A program made the position numbers and the translations under genes. Source: Patescibacteria group bacterium (lineage in GTDB: Bacteria; Patescibacteriota; Patescibacteriia; PEXW01). Taken from it: a stretch of DNA of 64,000 bases. Below, piece after piece: positions 43,162 to 60,532 of this stretch; within the stretch, counting starts at the first letter, position 1; every line of letters begins with the position of its first letter. The notes under the pieces are model-generated. The model saw only the letters and a program-made list of their open reading frames with translations, made no database searches and was not told the origin of the DNA. The DNA is taken from assembly GCA_041671325.1 (NCBI GenBank), contig JBAZBR010000001.1, forward strand, positions 153,771 to 217,770, read 5' to 3'.

Positions 43162-43173
43162 AAGATATAATTT

Positions 43174-43425: not shown

Positions 43426-43499
43426 TCCGGGATCGTCTAATGGTAGGACAGCGGCCTTTGAAGCCGTTTATCTTGGTTCGAATCCAGGTCCCGGAGCCA
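43426..43499 (+). tRNA. tRNA-Gln (anticodon TTG)
   Basis: The cloverleaf was folded by hand, with acceptor tccggga/tcccgga, anticodon loop ctTTGaa and T-loop ttcgaat. Confidence 0.8.
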
Positions 43500-45080
43500 A
43501 TGTGCACGAAGCGACCGCTCTGGGTCGTTTTGTGCTGTAGTTGCAAAGGATTTCTTTGGTTCTAACATAGTCATTACTCGCTCTGCATTCTGATCAAGAT
43601 TTTTCACCGCAAACAGGAGAATGTCCAATGAAAGGTGGAGCTTTCCGTCCTTTAAAGAAAAGTTCGAACCTAGCGTTGTAAAAATCTCTTTTTTCACCTC
43701 AAGGCTTCCCGTAGCGAATACGCGCCGTGCTTTCTCTGCAAAGTTGATGCCCCGCTCGGCAATCCCCAGCCAATTTTCAATCCGCTTGTCCGTATCTTTC
43801 AAGAATTCCTGCATACGGTCTTTCTCTTTTAGTAAGGCAACCTTCCTGCCTCGAAACTCCACCTCATCAATCTCACTGTTTGCCCGCATGTCAATGAGGT
43901 TATCAAGCTTCTTCACGCACGATTCGTACTCTCGACGTTGGTTGCCGTAAACACGTTCCCGGTCCACTACTTCAAGCTTGTGCATTTCCCGGAGCCTCGC
44001 AATAGCCCAGTCTCGAAAATCCTCTTTGATTTCTAATTTACCAAGTTCAGTGGCAATCTGCTTTTCCACTTCACCTTCCTCAAGGGACTTTTGGGTGCAG
44101 TTCGGGTACTTCCGCTTCGTGCAGTGGTAGTAAATGTAGTGTTGGACGGTTCCATCAGCGAGGCGTTTCGTTTTCTCTTCAGCCGTGACCATTGCACCGC
44201 ACTCGCCACAGCGGATTGGGCCACGGTAAGGAAAGTCATGCGTCTTTGAGCGCTGGGGTGACGGGCGGCCAAGGAGTTCCTGAATGCGTTCAAACTCCTC
44301 TCGGTTAATCATTGCTTTGTGAATACCTTTATGCCAGTTGCCGCTACCCTTGGGATACTCGAACTCCCCATAGTAGAACGTATTTGTGAAAATGTTGTAG
44401 ATGGAGCTTCGACAAATTGGGGTGCCATAAGTGCCCCTAAGTTTCCACTCATCAGCCGCAATTTGCTGGATGCGTGGCGGAGAGTAGTTACCCGTAAGCA
44501 TGAGATCAAACATCTTTCGCACCAGGCCAAAGCGCTCCGGGTCGGGTGTAATAGTTTTCATGCCTTTGGTCATGTACATTTCGTTTTTATAACCCAGGGG
44601 TGCGGGAGCGGGCAGTACTCCCATTTGTGCTTTTTGAACCAAACCACGCTTCACATCCCTGCCTTTCTTGGCGCTCTCATACTGCGACTGCGAAAGCGCC
44701 AGTTGTAGCATCCAGATACCTTCAGGCGAGTTATTCTCAAAGTGGTAGGTGGCCAGCTTGAGGTCTTTGATGATGCCCTCACGTAACATGTAGGTAATAC
44801 TACTCGCGTCAACTTCATTGCGAGAAAGACGATCTGGATGCCACGCGAGTAAGCCCTGGCGTTCGCCCTTCCGAATACGTTCCAACATCTTGGTAAAAGC
44901 AGGGCGATTATACGGGTGAAAGGCACTGGCCTTGTCCTCAACGAATTCAATATCGAGGTCAGCAAAGACCTCAGTGAGCTTATTCTTTTGCGCAGGGATA
45001 GATAACGCCTGTCGCTCTTTTCCTTCAGAGGACTTACGTACGTAAGCGAAGTATTTAGTTGTTTTGCCGTGTGGATCCAT
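43437..45080 (-). CDS. large serine recombinase (resolvase N-terminal domain, recombinase domain and zinc ribbon). Its 3' end overlaps tRNA-Gln.
   Basis: It has an N-terminal YVRKSS...RQ.LSI catalytic Ser region, a YYHCTKRK...NCTQ zinc-ribbon region and a length of about 547 aa. It is a paralog of 58183..59859. Confidence 0.8.
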   Translation of the reverse strand: MDPHGKTTKYFAYVRKSSEGKERQALSIPAQKNKLTEVFADLDIEFVEDKASAFHPYNRPAFTKMLERIRKGERQGLLAWHPDRLSRNEVDASSITYMLREGIIKDLKLATYHFENNSPEGIWMLQLALSQSQYESAKKGRDVKRGLVQKAQMGVLPAPAPLGYKNEMYMTKGMKTITPDPERFGLVRKMFDLMLTGNYSPPRIQQIAADEWKLRGTYGTPICRSSIYNIFTNTFYYGEFEYPKGSGNWHKGIHKAMINREEFERIQELLGRPSPQRSKTHDFPYRGPIRCGECGAMVTAEEKTKRLADGTVQHYIYYHCTKRKYPNCTQKSLEEGEVEKQIATELGKLEIKEDFRDWAIARLREMHKLEVVDRERVYGNQRREYESCVKKLDNLIDMRANSEIDEVEFRGRKVALLKEKDRMQEFLKDTDKRIENWLGIAERGINFAEKARRVFATGSLEVKKEIFTTLGSNFSLKDGKLHLSLDILLFAVKNLDQNAERVMTMLEPKKSFATTAQNDPERSLRAHWLRDLDSNQDKRLQRPLSYH

Positions 45081-45121
45081 AAACCTTTTAATAGGATAGC
45101 TTAGTTGCGTTATAGCACTTT

Positions 45122-45751
45122 TTATATTTCAAGGTTAGTATAGCTTCTAGACGCCTGTTCGTAGAGCCTATACAGACGTTGTTGTTTTTTTGTGGGCTTT
45201 CCGGCGTAGTATGGGTTTTTTATTTTCTCCTGAAGTTCATACATTTTCTTGTGCATCATAAGAGTATTGAAGAGCGAAAAGTATTTACTACGTCGGTTTT
45301 CATTTCTGGAACTGTAGGTGAGATTGTAACAATGCCGGCAGGCGAAAAAAGTGCCAATTTGGTAGAGAACCCCCACCCGTCGACCGCAGTAATGACCATT
45401 GGAGAAGAATGGGCAACGAAACCAATATCGTTTACCCCCGTATCGGCATACCGTGGTAGTAAGAGGTACCCGACAGTCAAAAGCCTTCTCATCGCCATTG
45501 GGGTCGGTCTGTGCATAGGTTAAAAGTATATAAGCATTTTCACCAAGTGCCGAGACAGCGAGGTGGGTACTACTTTCCTCACCAGTGTAACCGTTGGTCC
45601 AGGTCATGGTCGCTGTTCTCCCGCTGGAAAGAAGGCCATTATGTTTGAGCACGTTAATAGATAGCTTCTTTAACCGATCTGCCTCGATTTTGCGTAAAAT
45701 CGTTATCCTATAATTACCGAAATCATTTGAGATTGGGGTCGGTTGCGGCAT
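45122..45751 (-). CDS. hypothetical Cys-rich (zinc-ribbon-like) protein
   Basis: It is an ORF with CRYGGKRYWFRCP...CRHC and lies between the recombinase and the primase. Confidence 0.45.
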   Translation of the reverse strand: MPQPTPISNDFGNYRITILRKIEADRLKKLSINVLKHNGLLSSGRTATMTWTNGYTGEESSTHLAVSALGENAYILLTYAQTDPNGDEKAFDCRVPLTTTVCRYGGKRYWFRCPFFSNGHYCGRRVGVLYQIGTFFACRHCYNLTYSSRNENRRSKYFSLFNTLMMHKKMYELQEKIKNPYYAGKPTKKQQRLYRLYEQASRSYTNLEI

Positions 45752-47940
45752 TAAAGTAATTTTTCAGTTACATTTACCCCACCCTTCGTCTCACTATTAT
45801 TGCCAGGAGGATTAGCCGTCAAATCGTTGGCGTCTTTACTACCATCAGAATTTTGAAAGTGGGAGGATGGGAAAATCAAGATTTTCCGTTTATCATCGGG
45901 ATCTTGCTCCTGGATGATAAGCCCGGCCGTCTCCAACATTGGCAGTATTTGCTGACGGAGCTGATGCGTGTCCAGCATCCGTCCGTAGACGGCGAAGTGT
46001 TTACTTAGCACCTCTTGGCGGGTAACTCCGACTGTACCTACGACTTTCTCTATTCCGTCTTGCCCTACATTTTTTTCCTCCCAAGCAGGAAAAATTATGT
46101 CTTTATAGAGGTCGTAAATGTAGGGTGGCAAATTGAGTTCCTGGCTTACAGAGATTTTATCCCAGAGCATGAAGGCCGCATCAATATCTTCATTATTAGC
46201 CATGATGGTTGAGTCTGTCTGTTCCCGCCACCAGATATTAAGGAGGGCAAACGCTTTAATAAGGGAGAGAAGTCGTTTGATGTCCCGTTGGTGACGCGGT
46301 TTGAGGAACTGATGATCGCCAAGGAAGCGTTTCTCTATCCTCTCCGGTGATACGATATTTATTTCCTTTGCATTCTCCAGCTTGATGGCACGGATGCGTT
46401 CTTTGAGCAAGATGCGTCCTGGATCCGCCTCTAGCCAGCTCGTGAAGCTTTCGCTGTTTGCTTCTTTGCGAATAACGGCGCTAATACCCTCGTGAATTTT
46501 TTCCTGATTAACCTCTGGCGAGAGTAGAAGAAAGCGGGTTGCTTCTTGCTCATCTATACGGAGTCCCGCGGTACAAAAGATGACTGACGGAAAACCTTTA
46601 ATAATTACAGTCTTGGTTCGGTTGCCACCTTTTTCATTTTTGTCGGTTATTTTGGATTGCATCTCTTTTTCGTCATGGGACAAAAGAGATCGTAATCGCT
46701 CTAGAAGATCGGCATGAGGTTGATCTAGAAAAATGATTATTTTCCTCGATAAATCCACTACGATTGTATTCGTATCCTTGTCAAACTCACCTTGCTCGTG
46801 AAAAAAAGCGTTGGGTGAGCAGTTGCCCAATTTCATAACATCTTGATTTGGAAACAAATTGGAGATTTCCAGTGGGATGTAGCTTTTCCCCGTTGAGGAT
46901 GGTGCGTTGTAACTGATGTTGAATTGGGCGTTTTCGGTGTATGCAGACAATTCACATAAGAACGTGGCGAGCTTGTTTTCTGCGTCGTGTTTAATGGTCA
47001 ACCCAAGCGTTGCAAGGAGCTGATTGACTGTGAGCGGCGTGAACTTGCTAGTATCAATCCGTTCGGGATACGGTTTCGCGTACTTGGAGAATAGGTCCTC
47101 AACCGTGCCATTCAGCTTAGTGAAGTAATCAGTTACATCCCCCCCATCGCCGACCTCCGGCGGAAGGGTGATGATGAATGTTTCTACTTTTCCGCCATCT
47201 TCAACCATTTTTGCGGTTCGCTCTGCGCCCTTTCGACCAGCATTATCGTTGTCGAAGCATACATAAACCTCCTTGAGGTTTTGGATACGTTCTGCCCATT
47301 CTTTATTGAACGTCATTGCCCCATGAGTCGAAGTAACAGCTAAAACACCTTTGGAGATGAGTAAGAGTCTGTCTAGTTCTCCCTCACACACCACCAGAGG
47401 GCTATCTGAAGTTTCTAGAGCTCCCCAGTCATACAGTTGGGCTTCCACCCCACTGGGGTAGGTCATTTTGTCATTCCCAAATGCTGGATCCTGTCGGAGC
47501 TTAAAAAAGACGTAATTCCCGTAGGTATCCTTGATGGGTATGGTAATCCACTGCTTACGGTAGAATTGCCCGTAGCCGAGCTTGTAGGCGTCAATTACAG
47601 CGTCTGTAAGCCCCCGCTCGTGTAGGTATTCACGAATATGAATTGGGAGTGCCTGGTGGTACTTCTCAACCTTGTCTGTAACAGAGTTGATCGTCCGGCG
47701 AGGGCGTGACTCCTCGTCGCCCAGATGTTTGCGGAGGGTTTGGAGATTACCTTGTGCGCCACACTTCTTGCAGTCGTACTGCCCGGTTTCGGTATTGAAG
47801 TACAAGTGCGCCTCTCCGTTCCTGCTATCCTTGTCGCACTCGTTTAATAGGCATTTCGTGATGAGTTCGTTGCCACTCTCGCGGAATGCGATACCCTTCT
47901 GGGCTAGGTACTCGCGGATGGTAATTGTCTGTAGGGTCAT
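45751..47940 (-). CDS. phage/plasmid-type DNA primase-helicase (zinc finger, Toprim and P-loop region)
   Basis: It has an N-terminal CxxC...CxxC zinc finger, a Toprim-like EGELDRLLL...TSTHG region and a Walker-A-like PSSTGKSY motif. It is 729 aa. Confidence 0.6.
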   Translation of the reverse strand: MTLQTITIREYLAQKGIAFRESGNELITKCLLNECDKDSRNGEAHLYFNTETGQYDCKKCGAQGNLQTLRKHLGDEESRPRRTINSVTDKVEKYHQALPIHIREYLHERGLTDAVIDAYKLGYGQFYRKQWITIPIKDTYGNYVFFKLRQDPAFGNDKMTYPSGVEAQLYDWGALETSDSPLVVCEGELDRLLLISKGVLAVTSTHGAMTFNKEWAERIQNLKEVYVCFDNDNAGRKGAERTAKMVEDGGKVETFIITLPPEVGDGGDVTDYFTKLNGTVEDLFSKYAKPYPERIDTSKFTPLTVNQLLATLGLTIKHDAENKLATFLCELSAYTENAQFNISYNAPSSTGKSYIPLEISNLFPNQDVMKLGNCSPNAFFHEQGEFDKDTNTIVVDLSRKIIIFLDQPHADLLERLRSLLSHDEKEMQSKITDKNEKGGNRTKTVIIKGFPSVIFCTAGLRIDEQEATRFLLLSPEVNQEKIHEGISAVIRKEANSESFTSWLEADPGRILLKERIRAIKLENAKEINIVSPERIEKRFLGDHQFLKPRHQRDIKRLLSLIKAFALLNIWWREQTDSTIMANNEDIDAAFMLWDKISVSQELNLPPYIYDLYKDIIFPAWEEKNVGQDGIEKVVGTVGVTRQEVLSKHFAVYGRMLDTHQLRQQILPMLETAGLIIQEQDPDDKRKILIFPSSHFQNSDGSKDANDLTANPPGNNSETKGGVNVTEKLL

Positions 47941-48125: not shown

Positions 48126-48419
48126 CTATTCGGAGTAGAGCCGATTTTTTAGCATTTTGAGGGTGTCGAAGTACTGTAATGCAGAGATTTTGAGTTCACC
48201 CGCCCAATATTTATTTATAGCCTCGTCGATTCCTTCCTTACGTTTGAAGACAAAAAGTGCCTTCCGTGGGTTCGTTTTATCGAGCGTTACAAGTTCAAAA
48301 CCTGAACAGAGGAGCGCGGAACAAGCGCCCATGTCAAAGGACCTTAGAAGATGCTCTTGGTTGTCAAGCGGAATGTGGCGGATCTCTTCCGGGGGTATGC
48401 TCTTCTGTCCTTGAGTCAT
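48126..48419 (-). CDS. hypothetical protein
   Basis: It is an ORF in the mobile region. Confidence 0.35.
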   Translation of the reverse strand: MTQGQKSIPPEEIRHIPLDNQEHLLRSFDMGACSALLCSGFELVTLDKTNPRKALFVFKRKEGIDEAINKYWAGELKISALQYFDTLKMLKNRLYSE

Positions 48420-48518: not shown

Positions 48519-49337
48519 TTAATCTGTATGTTTCCACTCCGGTAAACCTTTAAGAAATGAATTGATGATTTCTTCGTTAATATTTAGACTTCGTAAGTTC
48601 TGCGTATCTATTTTTGTACGAAATTCTACACCGGCGCTTGATATACCCGGAAAGAAGAGTTTTTTAAGTTCCTTAGTAAAACCTAAATCATCAATGATTT
48701 GGTGAAGCGACTTTTTGAGAGTTGTTCTCATTCCCGACTCGATATCCTTTTTCGTATGCTTTTGATCAGGATGAGCAAAAACATACTCACAAAATTTATC
48801 ATTTTCGCTGTCAAAGTTAGGCCTACTAAGAATGCGGTCGTTAATAATCAGCTCACGGGTTTTGGGACGAAAAATAGAGTAAATGGAGCGGGGATCAATA
48901 CTATTATGTGAATAGACAATAGATTGTTTCTTCTTACTTCCAGCTTTCAACTTTTGAAAAGAAGGTTCGACATCTTCATATTCGTCTGCGACCCATTTTA
49001 AGTAGTTTTCAAAAGCAACATTATCAATAATTTGTATAGAAAAATGATCTAAGGGAGCGACATGATCGGTTAGGGTAATCCACCTGTACCGAATACCACC
49101 ACCCTCAAGTGAAGCTTTTTTTAGAATGCTTTCAACTTCGGATTGATTTTTTACAAGTCCTCGGCCGGCTTCGAAGAAGTCAGTCCATTTGATATTAAAA
49201 TTAACCTGATCACGTGGCGCTATCTCTTTTCGTTGCCGTATATAAAGTAATATCCTCTTTATCTTCAGAAGGCCGTCTCTCTTGAGTTGTAATTGATTCT
49301 TATCTTGTTGATCCATAGTAATAATATACTTGCACAA
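48519..49337 (-). CDS. hypothetical protein (low GC, about 35%)
   Basis: It is an ORF with no recognised domain. A nested perfect hairpin lies upstream at 49426-49497. Confidence 0.4.
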   Translation of the reverse strand: MCKYIITMDQQDKNQLQLKRDGLLKIKRILLYIRQRKEIAPRDQVNFNIKWTDFFEAGRGLVKNQSEVESILKKASLEGGGIRYRWITLTDHVAPLDHFSIQIIDNVAFENYLKWVADEYEDVEPSFQKLKAGSKKKQSIVYSHNSIDPRSIYSIFRPKTRELIINDRILSRPNFDSENDKFCEYVFAHPDQKHTKKDIESGMRTTLKKSLHQIIDDLGFTKELKKLFFPGISSAGVEFRTKIDTQNLRSLNINEEIINSFLKGLPEWKHTD

Positions 49338-49585
49338 TGTCCTGCTTTTCAGTATGATTTTATCAGCTTCAAGACTTTTTTCAAGAGCAAATGCGTTAGC
49401 AGAATAGACAATTTTCGAGCCTAAACCTCACTTCGTGAGGCATGGTACCAAACCCCTTAGTAGATACTGAACCCCGTGTTCAGCGACTCTACTAAGGGTC
49501 ACATTCCGAAAGGGATGTGGGTGGCCGAAAGGTCGCTAGCTGGCGCGGGGTTTTGTGTTTTTACTCTCTTATCAAATCATAAACT

Positions 49586-51283: not shown

Positions 51284-51614
51284 CCACGCTAGAAAGCTAA
51301 TTGGCGACAGTGCGCTTACTGATGATGAAGTTCAGGATATTATGGATAGACTTTACCAACTGGCAGCAACTGGGTTAGATCATTACGTTGCTTATCGTAA
51401 AAACGGAAAGGAGGAAAGTGATGTAGCGCCATTTTTTATAAAAAGGGGAAACGTGTAGTAGGTTAAAAGATTTAGAGCAGCCCTTTCTGCAGAAGGTATG
51501 GCGGTTAGTACGGATTTTTTACGTTTTAAAGTAGTAAGTAACAGGGTGGGGACGCTTGACGACCTGAGCAAATTACGAGAGGATTAAGCCATCAAATTTT
51601 AACCATATACACCT

Positions 51615-52608: not shown

Positions 52609-55332
52609 GTGATGAAACTGACAAAAGTAATGTGGCTAGTAGTAGTCACAGTTGTTCTCTGGACTGCTGGACTTTCTCTAGCTGCAGAAGGACCGGCGAT
52701 GTTACCGATCTTTGGTAACCACGCAAGGGGCGCCTCAGCAGGTTGGAAGTTCACGGAGTACGCATGTGGGTATCCAAATGGGTGTGTTTATCACCCTGGG
52801 TGGGACTTTAATTTGTCCAATCCAAACGATGCCCATCAGAATGTTTACGCCATTGCGGACGGCACGGTGGTTAGCGCGGCGCCCCATTACCCAACCACAT
52901 GGGGATCCGTAATTATTGAGCATAACATCAATGGACAGCACTTTTACTCACAGTATGGTCACTGTGAAGAAGTATTTGTTATTGCTAACCAGCAAGTGCA
53001 TAAGGGGAATCGAATTGCAAAGGTTGGCGACATTGGCGCACAAGGTGCGTACCATTTGCACTGGGAGATAAGAACAACCTCTCATGAGAACCCGGCTCTT
53101 CTGGATTACTGGACTGATAATCTAAAGAATCAAGCAACGGTTGAATCTTGGTACCGTAATCCTGAACGCATGATTGTCCGTCTGGACATTGATGCCGAAC
53201 GACAATCACAAGGCGAAGGGAACTATGGCAGTCTGGTGCAGGACAACGACTGGTTTATTCCCCTGAACGCCGATGCTCCGTACAACGGTGACAACACCCC
53301 GAAGACTTGTTACGTCCAAAGATGGTCGGGTGGCACGTTCGGCCCCTGTGGCGTTATCTATGATGCTCTCGGTGGAACTCGTACCGCCTATACAGTTCGT
53401 AACGGTTTCTGGGGTACGTGGAACGGTGCGGGTGGCCCCTCGAGCTCCATTGGCATACCCATAACCAATGAGTACAACAATGGCGGCTCAACTGCCAGAC
53501 AGGATTTTCAGAAAGGATACCTGTATTGGAACGGTAGTTCAGTGTCAGTCAATTACTATCCAAACTGTTCGCCTGGTTGGACCTCATCAGGCTGGAACAA
53601 CCAGTACTCGTATCTCTTCGCTCGGGCGTATGAACGCAACGGTGCGCGAAATGCGCTCGGTGAGGCAATTGGGCAGGTAAATGGCTGGAACGGTTTCTTT
53701 CGTCAGAATTTCACTGACGGTCGCTGTGTAATATACGACCCGAACAACGCTGTGGACAATTCTGCAGCGACGAACGAGGCGTACTACCTCACTGGCAACT
53801 TCTACACCGTGTATTTCCAAGAGTACCCGAGCGCCTGGCAAACCATCGGCCCCCCGACGCGCGATCGCGAGGGAAATGTGCAGTACTTTAAGACTGGCCG
53901 GATGGTGGAAGAGGCGAACGGCGTAATCCGCGTGTACAACGCGAGTGGCCAGCAAGTGTGGACGAACTACGTTGGGGGTGCTGGTGGCGGAGGAGACCCG
54001 TACGTCGACCTCGCCGTTCTGTACGATTACGGCGGGTGCCAGACGCGAGCCCATACGTTCCTGTCTACGGGTAGTACGTTCAACTACCAAGGTAACGAAG
54101 GCTGGGCGATCCTGAACAACTATTGCTTGCAGTATGTTGTGCGGAGCGTATCTGGCGACTTCGACGGTAATGGCGTTGCCGATGTGGCCATGCTTTACCA
54201 ATACGGCGAGTGTAGCGTCGGCATCCACGTGCTCCTCTCTACGGGTGCAAGCTTCACATACCAACCATACTGGTGGCAGTCGAGTGGGTTCTGTCCATAC
54301 GCCATCAGGGGTATGGTTGCCGGTGACTTCAATGGCGATGGTAAGGATGATATTGCCACGGTCTACGACTTCGGGAACAACCAAATCCGCATCTTCGTCT
54401 TGCTCTCTACAGGCAGTGGCTTCGCGTACCAGCCAGGAAACGAAGCCTGGTTGATTAACTACAGCTACGATGGGAGTGCGGTGAAGTTCGTGAACGCTGG
54501 TGATTTGAACGCCGACGGTAAAGACGACATTGTCATGGCCTACCGTTACGGCCCCTCAAGTACAGCGTTGCACGTCTTCCTTTCCACGGGTTCCAGCTTC
54601 ACATATCAGTCCTTCTGGTTCTGGGCTGATGGCTGGTTCGCCCTGGACGCCATGAAGTTCATGGAGATGGGTGACCTGAATGGCGATGGGAAGTGCGACG
54701 TGGTTATGGCCTGTCGGTACGGGTCGAATGAAATGGCTCTGCTCACATTCCTCTCCACCGGTACTGGCTTTAACTACCAGGGCTGGTGGTACCACAACGT
54801 CTCCTACAGCCTAGATGCTGTGAAATACATGGCGGTTGGGGATATCACTGGTGATGGCCTGGCCGACGTAGCTATGTCTTACCTCTATAGTGAGTATTCC
54901 GGTGCCATCCACTGTTTTACTTCCAGTGGTTCGGGCTTCAACTACTCGCCGTGGTGGTGGCAGAGTACGAGCTACGGCTGGGACCATACGAACGGTTTCT
55001 TCCTTGGGAAGTTCGACGGCAGCGGTACGCCAAAAGTGCTGGCAGGTGATCAGGAATGTTCACTCCCGCTGATGTTCCAGCTTAACCAGAATTACCCGAA
55101 CCCATTTAACCCGGCAACAGTAATTGCCTATACGTTACCAAGCGCCACGCACGTAACCCTAGAGGTGTACAACGTCTTGGGTCAGCGTGTTACGACTTTG
55201 GTAGATGAACAGCAAACAGCAGGTGAGCATACCGCTACTTGGGATGCTAACCCCTACTCTTCCGGCGTGTACTTCTATCGTCTCCGAGCTGGAGAAGCCA
55301 CGGAGACGAAAAAGATGCTCTTGCTGAAATGA
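52609..55332 (+). CDS. secreted M23-family peptidase fused to FG-GAP/VCBS-type repeats and a T9SS-type C-terminal sorting domain (Por_Secre_tail-like). It has high GC (about 52%).
   Basis: It has a signal peptide and M23 motifs (HPGWDF...D, HLHWE). Repeated GDFDGNGVADV / GDFNGDGKDDI / GDLNADGKDDI motifs are present. The C-terminal NYPNPFNPAT...GVYFYRL beta-sandwich tail is typical of T9SS cargo. Confidence 0.65.
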   Translation: MMKLTKVMWLVVVTVVLWTAGLSLAAEGPAMLPIFGNHARGASAGWKFTEYACGYPNGCVYHPGWDFNLSNPNDAHQNVYAIADGTVVSAAPHYPTTWGSVIIEHNINGQHFYSQYGHCEEVFVIANQQVHKGNRIAKVGDIGAQGAYHLHWEIRTTSHENPALLDYWTDNLKNQATVESWYRNPERMIVRLDIDAERQSQGEGNYGSLVQDNDWFIPLNADAPYNGDNTPKTCYVQRWSGGTFGPCGVIYDALGGTRTAYTVRNGFWGTWNGAGGPSSSIGIPITNEYNNGGSTARQDFQKGYLYWNGSSVSVNYYPNCSPGWTSSGWNNQYSYLFARAYERNGARNALGEAIGQVNGWNGFFRQNFTDGRCVIYDPNNAVDNSAATNEAYYLTGNFYTVYFQEYPSAWQTIGPPTRDREGNVQYFKTGRMVEEANGVIRVYNASGQQVWTNYVGGAGGGGDPYVDLAVLYDYGGCQTRAHTFLSTGSTFNYQGNEGWAILNNYCLQYVVRSVSGDFDGNGVADVAMLYQYGECSVGIHVLLSTGASFTYQPYWWQSSGFCPYAIRGMVAGDFNGDGKDDIATVYDFGNNQIRIFVLLSTGSGFAYQPGNEAWLINYSYDGSAVKFVNAGDLNADGKDDIVMAYRYGPSSTALHVFLSTGSSFTYQSFWFWADGWFALDAMKFMEMGDLNGDGKCDVVMACRYGSNEMALLTFLSTGTGFNYQGWWYHNVSYSLDAVKYMAVGDITGDGLADVAMSYLYSEYSGAIHCFTSSGSGFNYSPWWWQSTSYGWDHTNGFFLGKFDGSGTPKVLAGDQECSLPLMFQLNQNYPNPFNPATVIAYTLPSATHVTLEVYNVLGQRVTTLVDEQQTAGEHTATWDANPYSSGVYFYRLRAGEATETKKMLLLK

Positions 55333-55499
55333 TCTTAACCTTAAACATCAACACGCCCTGCGGACTATCCGTGGGGCGTTTTTCAATTCAGAAATTTAAA
55401 ATTAGCAATAGTGAGTTGCGGTAATCACGAAAATTTTTTATAGTAAAGACTATTTTTAATGGATCTTGCCTCCCAAATATAACTCATTAGGTGTAAGAT

Positions 55500-56432
55500 T
55501 TGATCATGCGAAAGCCCCTAGAAAAACTTAGAAAAATTGGCCTAAAGCATGCTCTTAGCACGCGTCTTTACGGAATCGTTGGTGTTTTTATTGTATTATC
55601 CTTCGCCATCCCCCAGTTATCACTAGCGTCAACAATTACCGCTCGTTCTTTGGCACTCAAGCTTACCGTACACGCAGAGGATGGAGCCGGGTATGTTCGT
55701 TCTGCATTTAAGCTATGGATTGATGCTGACCATGACGGTTGTGATACGCGACAGGAGGTATTGATTGTTGAATCAAAGGTTAAACCTAAGCTTGGAGCCA
55801 AATGTAAAATTATCTCGGGCAAGTGGATATCCTGGTATGACAACAAAACCTGGACGAAACCTGCTGACGTTGCTATTGATCATGTTGTCCCTCTTAAGGA
55901 AGCCTGGGATTCTGGGGCAAAATTTTGGACAGCCGCAACCCGCGAGCGTTATGCAAACGATTTAAGTTTCAGTTGGGGACTTGATGCCATAACTAGCAAA
56001 GTTAACTCCAGTAAGGGTGACAAAGACCCCGCTCAGTGGCTCCCTCCACTCACTTCCGCACGGTGTACCTATGCTATCCATTGGGTTGCAATTAAATACC
56101 GATGGAAGCTTACCGTTGACTCTGCTGAGCAAAAAAAGTTACTATCCATCCTCTCTGGTACCTGTGGCTCACGTACACTTACAGTACCAACTGTAATTGC
56201 TACAAGTACCACGATAAATCAAAATACCAATGCAAACACTAATACAATCAACACCAGTGCGCCTATTATTGCCCCGGTCCAGACGCCCGCACCAACACCA
56301 GTAGTTGTTACTCCAGTACCTAACACGAGTTCCTGTTGCAAAGTTTGTACAAGCGGGCAAGCTTGTGGCGATAGCTGTATTTCTTGGTCTTACACATGCC
56401 ATAAGGGCGTAGGCTGCGCCTGCCAAGGATAA
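55500..56432 (+). CDS. secreted HNH-like nuclease-fold protein (GmrSD C-terminal / DUF1524-like) with a Cys-rich C-terminus
   Basis: It has a signal/TM anchor, IDHVVPLKEAW...N...SKGDKDP (a His-Me finger-like motif) and a C-terminal CCKVCTSGQACGDSC. Confidence 0.45.
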   Translation: MIMRKPLEKLRKIGLKHALSTRLYGIVGVFIVLSFAIPQLSLASTITARSLALKLTVHAEDGAGYVRSAFKLWIDADHDGCDTRQEVLIVESKVKPKLGAKCKIISGKWISWYDNKTWTKPADVAIDHVVPLKEAWDSGAKFWTAATRERYANDLSFSWGLDAITSKVNSSKGDKDPAQWLPPLTSARCTYAIHWVAIKYRWKLTVDSAEQKKLLSILSGTCGSRTLTVPTVIATSTTINQNTNANTNTINTSAPIIAPVQTPAPTPVVVTPVPNTSSCCKVCTSGQACGDSCISWSYTCHKGVGCACQG

Positions 56433-56441
56433 ATCATTCCA

Positions 56442-56990
56442 ATGTCAATGAAATGGAACAAAGCTAGTACCCTAGTGGTTTTACTTTTTCTTGTAACAGT
56501 AACTCTAAATTTTTATTATGGTTCTGTTTTATATTCAAAAGTATTAGGGAAGCAGTACCAATTCACTATTGGCAAGGAATGTTTTAAATCACGTCCTGAT
56601 TGCGAAGCAAAGTATTTTCAAGGTTATTTAGATAAAATTGGTTCTCTTACCAATGAGAGCAGAACCTATTTTTCAAACATCATTATTCAAAACAACCAAA
56701 AAGGATATACAGGAAATTGTCCTTGTCCTTACGATAGTGATAGTGCGGGGAATAGTTGTGGAGGGAGATCTAGTTACTCAAAAAATGGACGAATATCATT
56801 TTGCTATGACTCCGATGTACCAGCTGAACAGATTGTGGACTTAAAGAGCTCGATGATTGCTCAGGAAAGAAAAAATCTTGATGATGCTATACAAAAAGAT
56901 ATTAACATTTATCACGAACAGTACACATTGCTTATAGTAGTAATTATATATAGTGTGATATTTTTCTACTTTAAAAATAAAAAATATTGA
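56442..56990 (+). CDS. hypothetical membrane protein with a Cys-rich central region
   Basis: It is an ORF with N- and C-terminal TM helices. Confidence 0.35.
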   Translation: MSMKWNKASTLVVLLFLVTVTLNFYYGSVLYSKVLGKQYQFTIGKECFKSRPDCEAKYFQGYLDKIGSLTNESRTYFSNIIIQNNQKGYTGNCPCPYDSDSAGNSCGGRSSYSKNGRISFCYDSDVPAEQIVDLKSSMIAQERKNLDDAIQKDINIYHEQYTLLIVVIIYSVIFFYFKNKKY

Positions 56991-57179
56991 AGGAATCTCC
57001 CTAGACACTGACACTTTAACGTTAAATAGAATTTAGCCATGATGTTGCTTTAAAAATTTTTTATTTTTTTCTAACAAACGAGGCGTATACTAGAGAAAAA
57101 TTTGGAGACGGCTCTTTATTTCAGGTGGGTAGGGGGGGGCGGTAATAAAACTTCACAAAATGAGTAGTATTGAGTATAC

Positions 57180-57716
57180 TTGAGTTGCTTTATGAATATC
57201 GCAATAACGGGCAATAGAAGAATATCCGAGACAATTCTTTACTTGCTCAAACGAGCTGATGAGAGAGGGGTACACAACCTCTCGAAATTTCAAATTATGA
57301 AACTTCTATACCTAATTGAGGTAGAGTATAGGAGATATCTTGGGAAAGGATTCTTTGAGACGCCAACATTTACAAGATTTGATCGAGGACCAATTCTTAA
57401 TGAAGCATATCCAATTATTGATACATTAATTTCAAGTGGTAAGGTCAAACTAACAATTCAAAGAAACCCAGGGTATGGACACGATAGGCATAGCCATTCT
57501 TTAAACAATCCAGATATTAAGGTGAGCCTTAGAGATGGAGAAAAAATATTCTTGAATAGTATTATTGATAGCTACATTGAATTAACACAAGCAAAATTGA
57601 GTAAAATTGCATACTCAACCGAACCAATGAAGAAAGTTCTGGCTAAAGAAAAAGGGGGAGAAATTTCTAAAGAAGCATTAGACATGGGACTAGTAAAAAA
57701 ACAAAGCTTTGGCTAA
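57180..57716 (+). CDS. Panacea-domain (DUF4065 / SocA-like) protein, a candidate antitoxin-associated protein
   Basis: It has the Panacea-like core KLLYLIEVEYRRYLGKGFFETPTFTRFDRGPI. Confidence 0.5.
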   Translation: MSCFMNIAITGNRRISETILYLLKRADERGVHNLSKFQIMKLLYLIEVEYRRYLGKGFFETPTFTRFDRGPILNEAYPIIDTLISSGKVKLTIQRNPGYGHDRHSHSLNNPDIKVSLRDGEKIFLNSIIDSYIELTQAKLSKIAYSTEPMKKVLAKEKGGEISKEALDMGLVKKQSFG

Positions 57717-58134
57717 TCCACCGGGATCAATACTTCATTTTACTAAGTACGTTTTCCTGGATAATAATGAGGCCAGGAACCATTTCGCTTTGCTTCTTAT
57801 CCCAGAGGACAAGACTAGTTTTACTAGAAGCGTTTGGTGTTGCGTCATTTCGTCAAACATTGATTACACCACTGGAATGAAAAAGTATTGTGTAAGGTTG
57901 GGAGAACGCTACCCATGTTTTTTACACCGTACTTACGTACACACTCACAAAATTGATTTACAGGAGAAAATTAATCTTCATAGAAACAACCCACGTGGGC
58001 TATTACGTGGAAGTGATCTCCGTCTTGTATTTCGAAAACTTCAAAGTTATATCTCTTCAAAAACATCATTAGAACCTGAAATCAAAGCCACCATATTCAG
58101 AGAGTGGCAGTTGCATTATGGGACCCTGCTTTGA
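57709..58134 (+). CDS. hypothetical protein (a possible partner of the Panacea-domain protein)
   Basis: It is an ORF overlapping the previous gene by 8 nt. Confidence 0.35.
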   Translation: MANPPGSILHFTKYVFLDNNEARNHFALLLIPEDKTSFTRSVWCCVISSNIDYTTGMKKYCVRLGERYPCFLHRTYVHTHKIDLQEKINLHRNNPRGLLRGSDLRLVFRKLQSYISSKTSLEPEIKATIFREWQLHYGTLL

Positions 58135-58182
58135 AGATGAGTTTTGTCCTGATTAAATAGTGAGTACTGGGGTGGGGTAAAT

Positions 58183-59859
58183 TTACAAAGTAATTGTTTG
58201 GTAGCAAAAGTTTGATTTTCCGCTTAAAGCTGCGTTTCTAACGTCGTCCAACAATCGGAGCCAGTTAGAAATGCCGCTCCCGACAGGGGAGGTTTTTGCT
58301 TTAGCGTAGCTCAAGAATTGGGGTTCGAACCGCAATGTTTTGACCAATGACATCTGCACGGCAGTTTGAATATCCCTCAGTGGTTTTTGCGGCTTTATTT
58401 GCAGAATTCCATTAAGAAGAACGAGGTTCGAACCTGTATAACACAGTATTGCCCGTTTGTCCTCAAGGGTGCCATTGTCGAACTGACCTTTCGCGGTATG
58501 AGCAAAGTCAAAGGCATCTTCGCAGGCCTTTAATACATGTTCGAAGCGAGCATCACTATCATTGAGAAGTTCCTTCAGTCGGAATTGTTCTTGCTCAAGG
58601 TCGGACTTCTTCGCTAGGTATTCATCATCATTGAGAAGACCACGCAAGCGCATGTTAACCAATTCTCCAAGTTCCTTTCTGCCTGCCTCAAAACGTCGAT
58701 GCAAAGAATTAAGAGTGGCACTGTCGGCCTTGCGTTCGTCATCATGAAGTTCTTTTAGGATTTCAATAGTCCAATCTCGAATTTCTCGGCTGATCGTGAG
58801 ACTGCCCAAGAAATCGGATATCTGTATTTCCAATGCGGCACGCTCAATTACGCGTTGGGTGCAGTTGACCGAACGCTTTCGTTTTGTACAATGATAGTAA
58901 ATGTACGTACGTCCGTTGCGGTTCGTTTTATGCTCGGCCGTGATAGCAGCGCCGCATTCCCCGCACTTTATCATTCCAGTGAATGCAAAATTATGTTGTT
59001 TCGGTCGAGGCCGGCTTGAAAGCCCCAGTATTTCCTGCACACGGTCGTATTCAGATTTAGAAATCATTGGTTGATGAGAACCAGTGAAGAGTTCGTTGTT
59101 GTAGAGAATAGCTCCATAGTAAAACGGATTTGTAAATATCCGGTAGATTGTCGAATATTGCACTGGACCGCCGCCCATTCGGACAAATTTGCGGGTACGA
59201 AGTGCAAGTTGATCTGTGGCAATCTGAAGCACTTTCCTTGGGGTAAAGCTTCCAGTTATCATCATATCCCACATCTTGCGAACTAAAGGAAACCGGACCG
59301 GATCTTTGATCACCGTATGTGTATTGCGGTCATTTAGATAACCCAAAGGCGGCATTCCTGGCATCCAACCTTGGGCGATTTTCGCCCGGAGGCCGCGTTT
59401 GACGTTGTCAGAGAGATCATCGACGTACTTTTTGGCCATGCCGAATTCAAGTTGCATCCAAAATTTGTCATTACCCGTATTCAGAAATGAACGCTGAGGA
59501 GTGTGGATGACTTTTAGCTTTTGTTCTTCCATCGCCCAGATGACGGCACCGCCATCAACCGGATTTCTGGCCAGGCGGTCAAGCTTCCAGCAGACAACCT
59601 GGTCGATTATTCCCTTTTGGACCAAGGCGAATAGTTGATTAAAGATCGGTCGGCCCGGAGATTTGGCCGATCGGGATTCCGTGAAGACTTTTTCAATGAC
59701 AAGTCCATCGTTTTCTGCAAAGGCCTTCAATTCGCGGACCTGAGATTCAATAGACAATATCTGTCGATCCTCAGATTCGCTCGATTTTCTAGCATAGATA
59801 ATAGTTTTGGACATATGGCTAATGTGGTTCATTATTAACCCTACTCCGAACTGCCCCAT
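58183..59859 (-). CDS. large serine recombinase (second paralog)
   Basis: It has IIYARKSSESEDRQ.LSIESQ with the catalytic Ser, the same architecture and zinc ribbon (YYHCTKRKRSVNCTQ) as 43437..45080. The likely start is MSKTIIY. Confidence 0.8.
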   Translation of the reverse strand: MGQFGVGLIMNHISHMSKTIIYARKSSESEDRQILSIESQVRELKAFAENDGLVIEKVFTESRSAKSPGRPIFNQLFALVQKGIIDQVVCWKLDRLARNPVDGGAVIWAMEEQKLKVIHTPQRSFLNTGNDKFWMQLEFGMAKKYVDDLSDNVKRGLRAKIAQGWMPGMPPLGYLNDRNTHTVIKDPVRFPLVRKMWDMMITGSFTPRKVLQIATDQLALRTRKFVRMGGGPVQYSTIYRIFTNPFYYGAILYNNELFTGSHQPMISKSEYDRVQEILGLSSRPRPKQHNFAFTGMIKCGECGAAITAEHKTNRNGRTYIYYHCTKRKRSVNCTQRVIERAALEIQISDFLGSLTISREIRDWTIEILKELHDDERKADSATLNSLHRRFEAGRKELGELVNMRLRGLLNDDEYLAKKSDLEQEQFRLKELLNDSDARFEHVLKACEDAFDFAHTAKGQFDNGTLEDKRAILCYTGSNLVLLNGILQIKPQKPLRDIQTAVQMSLVKTLRFEPQFLSYAKAKTSPVGSGISNWLRLLDDVRNAALSGKSNFCYQTITL

Positions 59860-59889
59860 AGGGGCAACCGAGAAAACGTTCGAACCCGT

Positions 59890-60123
59890 TTAATCGATAT
59901 CAGCATCTGATTTCATCAAGGTTTTAAAAAGATTGGTGAGTCTATTTGCTATCTCCCAGGCTTCCTTATCAGAGAGCTTATGACCAAATTCATCTTCATA
60001 GATGGCCTTAAGTTCTTCAATCGATTTCTGCGCTAATGGCATAAGCCCTAACCATAACAATCCCGTTAAGTCTGAACAGAGAGGAAATATTGCCTCTACG
60101 AGCAAACCAACCCAAAATGTCAA
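59890..60123 (-). CDS. hypothetical small protein
   Basis: It is an ORF. Confidence 0.3.
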   Translation of the reverse strand: MTFWVGLLVEAIFPLCSDLTGLLWLGLMPLAQKSIEELKAIYEDEFGHKLSDKEAWEIANRLTNLFKTLMKSDADID

Positions 60124-60184
60124 TTCCTTGGGTCATCCTTGTTTTTATCCACAGCGGGTTGCCTAGAGTGGCAATTGCAGGCAT

Positions 60185-60532
60185 TTGCATCCCTGCCCTA
60201 ATCTTGCTGTTACTGCTAGTTTAGTAATCAGGAGGGTATATTTTATGTCAAAAATCGCTCTTTCCCCGCGATTCCCAAATGATATCCGGCGGATTCGAAG
60301 ATCACGGCATCTAAGATTGAAGGATGTGGCCATTCTTATGGGTCAAAAATCAGTGGCACATATCTCGCACTGGGAAAAAGGTCGGAAGATTCCGTCTTTA
60401 ACAAATCTTTTCAAACTCGCGGCAATTCTGGGTATTCAGCCGGAATTCCTATTCCTCGAACTATACAGGCAGATTCGAAAAGATGTGCATGAACTCAACC
60501 AGAACCATAATATTTTCGAAAGGTATGACTGA
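60185..60532 (+). CDS. XRE-family helix-turn-helix transcriptional regulator
   Basis: It has the HTH region LRLKDVAILMGQKSVAHISHWEKGRKIPSLTNLFKLAAILGI. The likely start is the ATG at about 60245. Confidence 0.6.
   Translation: MHPCPNLAVTASLVIRRVYFMSKIALSPRFPNDIRRIRRSRHLRLKDVAILMGQKSVAHISHWEKGRKIPSLTNLFKLAAILGIQPEFLFLELYRQIRKDVHELNQNHNIFERYD

What the first reader, a model, noticed from the sequence alone, without database searches (positions are those of the whole stretch)
43426..60532. Composite accessory region with two paralogous large serine recombinases about 13 kb apart and a primase-helicase
The two recombinases (43437..45080 and 58183..59859, both on the minus strand) share architecture and several conserved blocks (YxRxSS, LGYxN, YYHCTKRK...NCTQ) but are clearly diverged. 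Between them lie a zinc-ribbon protein, a P4-type primase-helicase, several ORFans, a tandem-REC protein, a high-GC secreted-protein block, a Panacea-domain gene and an XRE regulator. The GC content swings from about 35% to about 52% across the region. This looks like two adjacent or nested integrative elements, or one element carrying a foreign cargo block, anchored at tRNA-Gln. No structural phage genes are visible, so it is more plasmid or ICE-like than prophage-like.
Basis: partly seen in the sequence, partly recalled or inferred. Interest (0 to 1): 0.55.

Follow-up and report, generated by a model that had tools for sequence, protein, structure and literature searches.

The report
Two stacked tRNA-Gln-anchored mobile elements
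About 17 kb of this small Patescibacteria genome is two mobile DNA elements inserted one behind the other at the end of a tRNA-Gln gene by large serine recombinases; the island is an ordinary kind of thing, but the recombinases carry their insertion site inside the end of their own gene, where it imitates part of a tRNA, and this design appears to be little described.

Summary
Two full-length large serine recombinases, LSR1 (43437-45080) and LSR2 (58183-59859), are 36% identical. They bracket a DnaG-type primase, small unknown ORFs, a double-REC protein, a GC-rich secreted M23/FG-GAP protein, a Panacea gene and an XRE gene. The reading "adjacent integrative elements at tRNA-Gln" is supported and can be made sharper.

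- **tRNA overlap.** LSR1's last 20 codons are antisense to tRNA-Gln. In 56 of 90 related loci the LSR stop also overlaps an antisense tRNA.
- **Orphan tails.** Unfused relatives end in "..LRxLD[DE]VRT..". Orphan copies of that tail lie 7-11 kb upstream of nine tRNA-fused LSRs.
- **Site geometry.** The tail DNA carries T[AC]GAACC exactly 5 bp further from the core than TCGAACC in the tRNA. That is the canonical attP versus attB offset for serine integrases. The inferred crossover is at tRNA positions 71-72.
- **Tandem structure.** LSR2's body belongs to another clade, but its tail is of the LSR1-clade type. I therefore read the island as a 14,764-bp element B (43495-58258) inserted next to a roughly 2.3-kb remnant, element A (LSR2, a 77-aa ORF and XRE).
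- **Other content.** Element B also carries a LOOT RNA. There are no phage structural or conjugation genes.

No empty site, circular form or right-hand att site was found.

The parts
43426..43499 (+). tRNA-Gln(ttg) with encoded CCA. It is the B arm of the integration site (attL of element B). The inferred crossover dinucleotide GA is at 43494-43495 (tRNA positions 71-72).
   Evidence: ARAGORN and Rfam tRNA at 62.8 bits.
43437..45080 (-). LSR1, the large serine recombinase of element B. Its last 20 codons (WLRDLDSNQDKRLQRPLSYH) are the reverse complement of tRNA-Gln, so its original C-terminal tail was swapped on integration.
   Evidence: Pfam Resolvase, Recombinase and Zn_ribbon_recom. PHROG integrase. 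Sequence read. Family pattern.
45122..45751 (-). Conserved Cys-rich 209-aa protein lying between the primase and the recombinase. Its function is unknown; a recombination directionality or replication accessory factor is a guess.
   Evidence: No Pfam, PHROG or PADLOC hit. A protein of similar size sits at the same position in L003.
45751..47940 (-). DnaG/T7-gp4-type zinc-finger and Toprim primase fused to an unassigned C-terminal half that has a Walker-A-like motif. It is the presumed replication protein of element B.
   Evidence: Pfam Toprim_2/3/4. PHROG primase and primase/helicase. PDB primases. No hit for the C-terminal half.
45769..45798 (.). A 30-nt motif (..AGTGAGACGAAGGGTGGGGTAAAT..) at the 3' end of the primase gene. 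It is the inverted partner of 58156-58185.
   Evidence: Inverted repeat I2, 80% complementary. The same pair is present in L003, at the primase 3' end and just after the LSR stop.
48126..48419 (-). DUF5659 protein, part of the conserved core module.
   Evidence: Pfam PF18903, E = 3e-12. Also present in L003-L007.
48519..49337 (-). 272-aa protein of unknown function. It is the first gene of the core module (272aa, DUF5659, primase, 209aa, LSR).
   Evidence: ORF list. An unannotated protein of comparable size sits at the same position in L003 and L004.
49418..49537 (+). LOOT RNA (Rfam RF03000). It is transcribed away from the core module, at the boundary between core and cargo.
   Evidence: cmscan 84.1 bits against a gathering score of 46.4, full-length match. 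Found at the same relative place and strand in L004, L010, L014 and L064, and by nhmmer in L016, L034, L041, L058, L089 and L095, with L059 carrying it on the opposite strand.
49586..58134 (+). Cargo of element B:
- 49586-49885: 99-aa zinc-ribbon-like protein.
- 50438-51283: double-REC protein.
- 51615-52544: Asn-rich membrane or secreted protein.
- 52609-55332: M23 peptidase / FG-GAP / Por_Secre_tail protein, GC 0.53.
- 55500-56432: protein with a GmrSD_C nuclease domain.
- 56442-56990: 182-aa protein.
- 57180-57716: Panacea-domain protein, overlapping a 141-aa ORF at 57709-58134. This pair may be a toxin-antitoxin system.
   Evidence: Pfam, PHROGs, no PADLOC hits, composition.
58156..58257 (-). 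P arm of element B's attachment site. It codes the tail ..LRLLDDVRNAALSGKSNFCYQTITL*, now fused to the LSR2 body. It holds TTAGAAAC, the match to the family's TT[AC]GAACC zinc-ribbon-domain motif (one mismatch in its last three bases), 5 bp further from the core than TTCGAACC lies in the tRNA. The inverted motif at 58156-58185 belongs to it.
58256..58263 (+). CGGAGCCA, a second copy of the tRNA-Gln 3' end. It marks the junction between element B and element A. The inferred crossover GA is at 58258-58259, 14,764 bp from the copy at 43492-43499.
58183..59859 (-). LSR2, the large serine recombinase of the older element A. Its body belongs to a clade whose nearest member is from Zixibacteria (72% identity), but its C-terminal tail is of the LSR1-clade type.
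   Evidence: Pfam, homologues and their tails, anchored tail scores.
59890..60532 (.). The rest of the element A remnant: a 77-aa ORF (59890-60123, minus strand) and an XRE/HTH_3 regulator (60185-60532, plus strand) divergent from LSR2.
   Evidence: Pfam. The same divergent HTH_3/LSR arrangement occurs in the LSR2-clade locus L107.
60533..60797 (.). Zone that contains the right-hand boundary of the island. No recognisable att site is left here.
   Evidence: The 349-aa gene and its operon are conserved in relatives, with different neighbours beyond them. A Logan contig from another sample starts at 60610. No P-arm or tRNA remnant was found.

Best explanation
The region is a tandem pair of integrative elements at the 3' end of tRNA-Gln(ttg) in a Patescibacteria (CPR) chromosome.

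**How this recombinase family integrates.**
- The attP site lies inside the last codons of the recombinase gene itself.
- The P' arm is the end of the recombinase body.
- The P arm codes the C-terminal tail "..L-R-x-L-D-[DE]-V-R-T..". Here GTT AGA ACC (V-R-T) is a copy of the tRNA T-loop/T-stem heptamer, placed 5 bp further from the core than in a tRNA.
- The attB site is the acceptor/T-arm end of a tRNA gene plus its 3' flank.
- The inferred crossover is at tRNA positions 71-72. The tRNA therefore stays intact, and the recombinase ORF now runs antisense into it.

**Inferred order of events.**
1. Element A, carrying LSR2 with XRE, integrated first and has since decayed to about 2.3 kb.
2. Element B (14,764 bp) then integrated into the same tRNA. 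It carries LSR1, a 209-aa protein, the primase, DUF5659, a 272-aa protein, a LOOT RNA and about 8.8 kb of mixed cargo.
3. That second insertion separated LSR2 from the tRNA and gave LSR2 the tail of element B.

**Status of each step.**
- Shown by comparison: the site architecture, the two tail forms and the element content.
- Inferred: the order of events, the exact dinucleotide, replication by the primase, and whether element B is still mobile.
For: 1. The LSR1 stop region is the exact antisense of tRNA-Gln. In 56 of 90 related loci the LSR stop overlaps an antisense tRNA: Asn 23, Gln 25, Ser 3, Asp 2, Trp 2, Gly 1. Three further loci have tRNAs interrupted by group I introns.
2. Fourteen loci, and most of the LSR2 clade, carry the alternative tail ..VRT.. 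with no tRNA. P0189 and P0201 share ..KNPLQKVSFCANL and then diverge, one into tRNA-Gln antisense and the other into ..DVRTF.
3. Orphan tail-coding P arms lie 7.3-11.2 kb upstream of nine tRNA-fused LSRs. Each attL/attR pair shares only a 3-12 nt core around the Leu codon that is antisense to tRNA positions 71-73.
4. TCGAACC starts at +15 in 54 of 55 B arms, and T[AC]GAACC starts at +20 in 18 of the 19 genuine P arms listed (L069's attR arm is the exception). GGA sits at +11..13 in both arms, with a mirrored TCC at -10..-8 in P'. The 5-bp shift matches the published attP/attB rule (PMC3783163).
5. LSR2's body end (..SPVGSGISNW) fits its own clade. Its tail scores 30-34 against LSR1-clade tails (GKSxFxY), against a maximum of 17 and a mean of -7 over 74 tails of the LSR2 clade.
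6. The only P arm in the window is the one at 58.2 kb. It is followed by a motif whose inverted partner is in the element B primase gene, as in L003.
7. LSR1's P' arm mirrors P arms at 8-10 of 21 positions, LSR2's at only 1-5 of 21.
8. The core gene order recurs in L003-L007, and the LOOT RNA recurs in relatives.
9. Composition is heterogeneous, and the right flank is conserved host DNA.
Against: - No related genome with an empty tRNA-Gln site was found, because the nearest relatives share only 41-46% protein identity.
- No att site or P-arm remnant marks the right end of element A.
- None of the fetched loci is a circular contig.
- The predicted excised-form LSR1 protein and the pre-B form of LSR2 are absent from a collection of 15 billion proteins.
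- By the canonical rules, a serine integrase recombines attP only with attB. Insertion of B next to A requires LSR1 to treat "tRNA plus the end of the LSR2 gene" as an attB. That is plausible only because the B' flanks look unconserved.
- Two loci (L062, L064) also show 16-18 nt tRNA-end repeats that would suggest a crossover nearer the T-loop.
- The mirror test does not separate cognate from non-cognate arm pairs.
- Many LSR2-clade genes sit in large chromosomal contigs with unfused tails, which the model does not explain.
Confidence: 0.7

Rival explanations
1. This is one composite element. LSR2 keeps its own native unrecombined attP and rides as a passenger, or as a second recombinase, inside a single 17-kb island integrated by LSR1. 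The real right-hand att site of that island has been lost.
For: LSR2 is full length with an intact ..VRN.. tail, like most of its clade. No att site is seen at 60.5-60.8 kb under either model. Canonical serine integrases do not insert into attL.
Against: LSR2's tail beyond VRN matches LSR1-clade tails (score 30-34) and not its own clade (maximum 17 over 74 tails). Its P' arm does not mirror the adjacent P arm, at 4 of 21 positions. The motif after its stop pairs with the element B primase gene. This model leaves element B with no P arm at all.
Confidence: 0.13
2. The tandem structure is the same but the order is reversed. Element B integrated first, and element A then inserted into B's right-hand junction (attR).
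For: This gives the same final arrangement of arms (reasoning).
Against: attR of B would offer LSR2 a P-type arm with the +5 spacing in place of the tRNA B arm that the family recognises. The more decayed element (A) is expected to be the older one.
Confidence: 0.08
3. The junctions are assembly artefacts. On this view a metagenome assembler joined unrelated contigs at conserved tRNA or recombinase sequence, which would explain the foreign GC block.
For: The source is a MEGAHIT metagenome contig. Short Logan contigs break inside the tRNA and at 60610.
Against: The primase and LSR2 are deposited in two NCBI MAGs, with protein accessions 12 apart in both. Contigs of 618 kb and 496 kb both carry the genes. 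Host genes flank the island on both sides.
Confidence: 0.04
4. The overlap between the tRNA and the recombinase ORF is coincidental, and the block is a stable accessory region that no longer has, or never had, recombinase-mediated mobility.
For: No circular form or empty site was found.
Against: The overlap recurs in 56 of 90 loci across six amino-acid specificities (eight anticodons), with a fixed motif register in 54 of 55. Orphan P arms occur at the far ends of nine related elements.
Confidence: 0.05

Closest known systems
Phage and ICE large serine integrases (Listeria A118/LI, Bxb1, phiC31, SPbeta)
   Same: The domain set is the same: Resolvase, Recombinase and a zinc ribbon, with an RKSS catalytic motif. 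The sites are short. The attP half-site carries the zinc-ribbon-domain motif 5 bp further out than attB does (PMC3783163). The central dinucleotide is non-palindromic.
   Different: The target is the extreme 3' end of tRNA genes rather than a protein-coding gene. The attP site sits inside the recombinase's own last codons, so integration changes the protein's C-terminus. The B' flank looks unconserved. The carrier has no phage or conjugation genes.
Tycheposons and related cryptic elements of Prochlorococcus (bioRxiv 10.1101/2020.12.28.424599)
   Same: These are tRNA-anchored elements with a site-specific integrase, primase or helicase replication genes and variable cargo. A minority of them (27 of 937) use a large serine recombinase.
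   Different: The host phylum is different and no sequence relationship was tested. Most tycheposons use tyrosine recombinases and leave partial tRNA repeats. Neither a LOOT RNA nor a tail-embedded attP was noted in the parts of that paper I read.
SSV1-type archaeal integrases
   Same: The attP site lies within the integrase gene and the target is a tRNA gene, so integration alters the integrase ORF.
   Different: Those are tyrosine recombinases, and their gene is split into two parts. Here only the last 20-30 codons are exchanged and the catalytic body stays intact.
Tandem arrays of genomic islands at tRNA genes (from my own knowledge of tyrosine-integrase islands)
   Same: Successive elements use one tRNA, the newest one sits next to the tRNA, and the older ones decay.
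   Different: Here the mechanism is serine recombination with a core of only a few bases. The inner recombinase gene also acquires the outer element's tail.
P4-like and PICI-like satellites (integrase plus primase)
   Same: They have an integrase and a primase module with cargo and no capsid genes.
   Different: No packaging-redirection genes, terminase small subunit or cos/pac features were found. The primase C-terminal half is not recognisably a P4/D5 helicase.

Membership tests
Large serine recombinase (serine integrase) | An N-terminal resolvase catalytic domain with the Arg-x-Ser nucleophile motif. | tested here: met
   PF00239 at E = 3e-20 for LSR1 and 5e-22 for LSR2. YVRKSS and YARKSS are aligned, and R15/K16/S17 are nearly invariant across 33 sequences.
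Large serine recombinase (serine integrase) | A recombinase domain followed by a zinc-ribbon domain with four Cys residues. | tested here: met
   PF07508 and PF13408 are present in both proteins. C291, C294 and C328 are invariant and C320 is nearly so (at least 90% of sequences).
Large serine recombinase (serine integrase) | The attP half-site carries the zinc-ribbon-domain motif 5 bp further from the crossover than the attB half-site does. | tested here: met
   TCGAACC starts at +15 in 54 of 55 tRNA arms. T[AC]GAACC starts at +20 in 18 of 19 P arms (17 were used for the consensus). The rule itself is from PMC3783163.
Large serine recombinase (serine integrase) | The element is flanked by hybrid attL and attR sites that share only a short core. 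| tested here: met
   Nine related loci have attL/attR pairs with cores of 3-12 nt. In the window, CGGAGCCA occurs at 43492 and at 58256. Element A has no right-hand site.
Large serine recombinase (serine integrase) | Catalysis of attP x attB recombination, with reversal by a directionality factor. | not testable with these tools
   This needs an in vitro or in vivo assay. No directionality factor was identified.
Integrative and conjugative element (ICE) | A relaxase, a coupling protein and type IV secretion genes. | tested here: not met
   No such Pfam or PHROG hits on any island ORF.
Prophage | Capsid, portal, terminase and tail genes. | tested here: not met
   PHROGs gave only integrase, primase, regulator and M23-peptidase hits. 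The family is rare in IMG/VR, with 6 loci.
Tycheposon-like tRNA-anchored replicative element | A site-specific integrase at a tRNA, a replication gene and cargo. | tested here: met
   This is a functional resemblance only. Homology to tycheposon genes was not tested.
LOOT RNA (Rfam RF03000) | A match to the covariance model above its gathering score over the full length. | tested here: met
   84.1 bits against 46.4, covering model positions 1-121 of 121.
Panacea (PanA) toxin-antitoxin pair | A Panacea-domain antitoxin next to a toxin gene in one operon. | tested here: inconclusive
   PF13274 at E = 1e-6 on 57180-57716. The overlapping 141-aa ORF has no family hit.
P4-type primase-helicase | A primase domain fused to a D5/SF3 helicase and an origin-binding domain. 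| tested here: inconclusive
   The primase half is met. The C-terminal half has no Pfam or PDB hit, and the structure model had pLDDT 33.6.

The most novel reading that the evidence does not exclude
This Patescibacteria-centred recombinase family may be a distinct class of tRNA-targeting serine integrases with three linked properties.
- The zinc-ribbon domain would read the universal T-arm sequence GGTTCGAA. That would explain how one family colonises tRNAs of six amino-acid specificities (Gln, Asn, Asp, Trp, Ser and Gly).
- The attP site is written into the integrase's own C-terminal codons, with V-R-T encoded by GTT AGA ACC. Integration then swaps the protein's tail and could act as a built-in switch between the integrated and free states.
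- The LOOT RNA, whose function is unknown as far as I could find, would be a dedicated component of these elements. Replication control or cargo expression are possible roles.
Probability: 0.3. Interest if true: 0.7.

Novelty: new variant of a known kind. Interest (0 to 1): 0.55.

Why it matters
- **For this genome.** About 17 kb of a roughly 0.6-Mb Patescibacteria genome is recently acquired mobile DNA. It includes a compositionally foreign secreted peptidase and a recombinase whose nearest relative is from Zixibacteria. This bears on how such reduced genomes gain genes.
- **For recombinase biology.** The comparison yields predicted attP/attB pairs for many natural serine integrases. They follow a simple rule: the tRNA acceptor/T-arm serves as attB and a +5-shifted mimic serves as attP. 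These are testable 40-50-bp sites at targets present in every cell.
- **For annotation.** Tails such as "DSNQD..SYH" on recombinases mark integration junctions and can be used to map element ends.
- **For the LOOT RNA.** It gives an RNA of unknown function a genomic home.

Tried and rejected
1. **Crossover in the anticodon loop.** This was suggested by L013, where only a 3' half tRNA follows the LSR, and by the 5' pseudo-tRNA in the window. I rejected it: L013, L010 and L087 have group I introns in the tRNA, and the pseudo-tRNA belongs to a separate GIY-YIG feature.
2. **Crossover in the T-loop.** This came from the 16-18 nt repeats in L062 and L064. It was superseded when the true P arms were found further in and the dyad centre was located.
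3. **Search for a second copy of the tRNA-Gln 3' part or any other tail remnant in the window.** None was found.
4. **Search for an empty site or alternative junctions.** Exact-protein look-ups returned only short contigs that break in the tRNA and at 60610. Relatives of the right flank are too distant.
5. **Search for circular or excised forms.** No locus has a terminal overlap. The predicted junction proteins are not in the collection.
6. **IMG/VR scan.** Only 6 relatives were found.
7. **PADLOC on the cargo.** Nothing significant.
8. **Helicase assignment for the primase C-terminal half.** Pfam, PDB and a single-sequence AlphaFold model (pLDDT 33.6) were all uninformative.
9. **Dyad-symmetry test as proof of which P' belongs to the P arm.** It cannot separate cognate from non-cognate pairs across loci. 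It is only weakly informative for LSR1 versus LSR2.
10. **Literature searches for serine integrases that target tRNAs, or for DUF5659 or LOOT function.** Nothing specific turned up.

Full report
**Observation.** Both have the Resolvase, Recombinase and zinc-ribbon domains. They align over their full length at 36% identity, E = 9e-107. tRNA-Gln(ttg) is at 43426-43499. GC in 1-kb windows ranges from 0.362 to 0.543 against a host mean of 0.418 +/- 0.029. The 53-55 kb block, which holds the M23/FG-GAP/Por_Secre_tail gene (GC 0.53), lies 8 SD from the host in tetranucleotide distance. No capsid, terminase, portal, tail, relaxase or type IV secretion gene was detected. The "primase-helicase" is a DnaG/T7-gp4-type zinc-finger and Toprim primase. 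Its C-terminal half could not be assigned.

**Source.** The window comes from a 618-kb metagenome contig of a Patescibacteria-group MAG. The primase and LSR2 are also deposited in two NCBI MAGs, with protein accessions 12 apart in each. This argues against a chimeric assembly.

**The recombinase gene runs into the tRNA.** The last 20 codons of LSR1 (WLRDLDSNQDKRLQRPLSYH*) are the exact reverse complement of tRNA-Gln. This is a property of the whole family.
- I fetched 90 related loci from genome, viral and metagenome collections.
- In 56 of them the LSR stop overlaps or abuts an antisense tRNA: Asn(gtt) 23, Gln(ctg) 15, Gln(ttg) 10, Ser 3, Asp 2, Trp 2, Gly 1.
- Three more loci have tRNAs that ARAGORN missed because they carry group I introns.
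- Fourteen loci, and most proteins of the LSR2 clade, instead end in a conserved non-tRNA tail, "..L-[RG]-x-[LV]-D-[DE]-V-R-T..".
- P0189 and P0201 share ..KNPLQKVSFCANL and then diverge, one into tRNA-Gln antisense and the other into ..DVRTF.

**The other end of the elements.** In nine loci whose LSR is fused to a tRNA, an orphan copy of the "..LRxLD[DE]VRT.." coding segment lies 7.3-11.2 kb upstream in the same orientation. In most of these it is not attached to a recombinase body. Each such pair, attL at the tRNA and attR at the orphan tail, shares only a 3-12 nt core around a Leu codon CT[CG]. That codon is antisense to the discriminator base and tRNA positions 72 and 71. The tail DNA is therefore the P arm of attP, and integration exchanges the recombinase's C-terminal codons for tRNA antisense. 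In integrated copies the new tail varies from 2 to more than 20 residues. I infer that conservation of the VRT tail reflects a constraint on the DNA site rather than on the protein.

**Site geometry.** Positions are counted from the first base of the Leu codon.
- The tRNA (B) arm has GGA at +11..13 and TCGAACC at +15..21 in 54 of 55 loci.
- The P arm has GGA at +11..13 and T[AC]GAACC at +20..26 in 18 of the 19 genuine P arms listed.
- The heptamer that codes V-R-T is thus a T-loop/T-stem mimic displaced by exactly 5 bp.
- This is the published hallmark distinguishing attP from attB half-sites of serine integrases. The zinc-ribbon-domain motif is shifted 5 bp toward the centre in attB (PMC3783163).
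- The P' arm, which is the end of the recombinase body, carries a mirrored TCC at -10..-8. That places the dyad centre at +1.5.
- The central dinucleotide is therefore bases 1-2 of the Leu codon, corresponding to tRNA positions 71-72.
- Every observed attL/attR core includes these two bases.
- In the window this is GA at 43494-43495.

**The window is a tandem.** The only P arm in the window is the one fused to LSR2.
- The end of LSR2's body (..SPVGSGISNW) is typical of its own clade, whose tails read W-x-x-L-V-x-D-V-R-T-F-[YF]...
- LSR2's actual tail, LRLLDDVRNAALSGKSNFCYQTITL, is of the LSR1-clade type. Compare ..LNEVRTIMLQGKSNFYY..LDEVRTVLLAGKSSFQY and ..LDDVRTILLGGKSGFAY.
- Anchored scores for the tail are 30-34 against those LSR1-clade tails. 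Against 74 LSR2-clade tails the maximum is 17 and the mean is -7.
- Just beyond the LSR2 stop lies a 30-nt motif whose inverted partner sits in the 3' end of the element B primase gene. The same arrangement occurs in the unfused relative L003.
- LSR1's P' arm mirrors P arms at 8-10 of 21 positions, while LSR2's does so at 1-5 of 21.

My reading is that element A (LSR2, a 77-aa ORF and a divergent XRE gene) integrated first. The divergent LSR/XRE arrangement also occurs in the LSR2-clade locus L107. Element B then integrated at the tRNA side. It treated the tRNA arm plus the end of the LSR2 gene as its attB, and it left its own P arm fused to the LSR2 body. Relics of similar stacking occur in L064 and L079.

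**Content of element B.** The core gene order (272aa, DUF5659, primase, 209aa, LSR) recurs in L003-L007.
- A LOOT RNA (RF03000) scoring 84 bits lies in the divergent gap between core and cargo.
- It is found at the same place and on the same relative strand in L004, L010, L014 and L064.
- nhmmer also finds it in seven further loci, one of them (L059) on the opposite strand.
- It was absent from seven loci with more distant recombinases.
- In the only paper in the library that mentions it, LOOT is cited as a strongly covarying bacterial RNA (PMC7657543), and I found no stated function.
- The cargo is heterogeneous and has no PADLOC match.
- The Panacea gene and its overlapping 141-aa partner may be a toxin-antitoxin pair. 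This is an inference.

**Boundaries.** The left boundary is the crossover at 43494/5. The right boundary lies between 60533 and 60797. The Mtase, 231-aa protein, radical-SAM, PNP, NIF3 and 349-aa operon is conserved in relatives at 41-46% identity, with different genes following it. A contig from another sample starts at 60610. No att remnant survives there.

**What is missing.**
- There is no empty-site relative.
- There is no circular form.
- The predicted excised-form proteins have no exact match in public data.
- No directionality factor was identified.
- There is no explanation for why many LSR2-clade genes sit unfused in large chromosomes.
- Insertion next to an existing element is not a canonical attP x attB event. 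It is plausible only because the B' flanks appear unconstrained.

**Comparison and novelty.** The island itself is an ordinary kind of thing: stacked integrative elements at a tRNA gene. In function it is closest to tRNA-anchored integrase-plus-primase cargo elements such as tycheposons, a minority of which use large serine recombinases. Three features appear little described:
- a large, mainly Patescibacteria, serine-integrase family that targets the extreme 3' end of tRNA genes;
- an attP embedded in the integrase's own last codons as a +5-shifted T-arm mimic;
- a resident LOOT RNA.

My literature searches found no description of these features, but the library is incomplete. I rate the finding as a new variant of a known kind, with interest 0.55.

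Noticed in passing
window 43071-43425 (also L039, L056, L069, L100): Just upstream of the intact tRNA-Gln lies a pseudo-copy of its 5' part (positions 1-41). It is interrupted by GC-rich hairpins of the form TCCGCC-NNN-GGCGGA. That pattern occurs only here in the 64 kb, against 0.04 expected. A small GIY-YIG ORF follows at 43174-43371 and appears frameshifted at an A-run near 43366. The same layout recurs at tRNA-Gln in L039 and at tRNA-Asn in L056, where the promoter flank is also duplicated: a pseudo-5'-tRNA with hairpins, then GIY-YIG, then the intact tRNA. L069 and L100 show the hairpin-interrupted pseudo-copy without a GIY-YIG ORF. All five GIY-YIG homologues seen lie within 60 nt of a tRNA gene. 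This may be a free-standing homing-endonuclease cassette that targets tRNA genes. The mechanism is unexplained.
   Followed up: partly
L010 11631-11929, L013 11615-11938, L087 11630-11915: Group I introns (Rfam RF00028, 58-85 bits) interrupt the tRNA genes that abut the recombinase in three loci, two of them Patescibacteria-affiliated MAGs (L010 is from an unclassified bacterial MAG, L013 from an Adlerbacteria MAG; L087 is an unclassified metagenome contig). ARAGORN misses these tRNAs, and the recombinase is fused to the 3' exon.
   Followed up: partly
window 45769-45798 and 58156-58185; L003 4651-4690 and 7845-7885: A conserved ~30-nt motif (..AGTGA.ACG.AGGGTGGGGT..) occurs once inside the primase gene's last codons and once, inverted, just after the recombinase stop in the attP form. 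It could be an origin, a primase recognition site or a regulatory site. It was not found in the more distant relatives L062, L064 and L069.
   Followed up: partly
window 52609-55332: This 907-aa protein has an M23 peptidase domain, FG-GAP repeats and a type IX secretion C-terminal sorting domain (Por_Secre_tail). Its GC is 0.53 in a genome of GC 0.42. As far as I know, a type IX sorting signal is unexpected in Patescibacteria. A relative (L105) also encodes a Por_Secre_tail protein, so the domain may have another use in this lineage.
   Followed up: no
window 43500-43525 (end of the LSR1 body): Compared with its closest relatives (P0002 and P0003..SAHF-LDGSCAL-LRG..), LSR1 (..RAHW-LRD..) lacks seven residues just before the crossover core. 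Its W codon doubles as the encoded CCA of the tRNA. The P' arm still mirrors P arms, in a block of 7 of 9 positions.
   Followed up: partly
L064 1194-1470; L079 ~510-600: There are relics of earlier integrations at the far ends of related elements. L064 has an 18-nt tRNA-Asn end repeat about 170 nt outside the true P arm. L079 has a fragment of a recombinase body end (..LYAESPRM) still attached to its P arm. Stacking followed by decay therefore seems common in this family.
   Followed up: partly
LSR2 clade (P0135-P0253): LSR2's nearest relative (72% identity) is from a 3.5-Mb Zixibacteria contig. Most members of the clade sit in large chromosomal contigs with unfused ..DVRTF tails, and only four of the roughly 80 tails inspected are tRNA-fused. 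Either these elements integrate by another route or many are inner members of arrays.
   Followed up: no
window 60610; L009, L002, L001: Short Logan contigs from two other samples carry identical flanking genes. They stop inside tRNA-Gln (about 43455) and start at 60610. The first break may simply reflect k-mers shared between tRNAs. The second has no obvious cause and may mark strain variation at the right edge of the island.
   Followed up: partly
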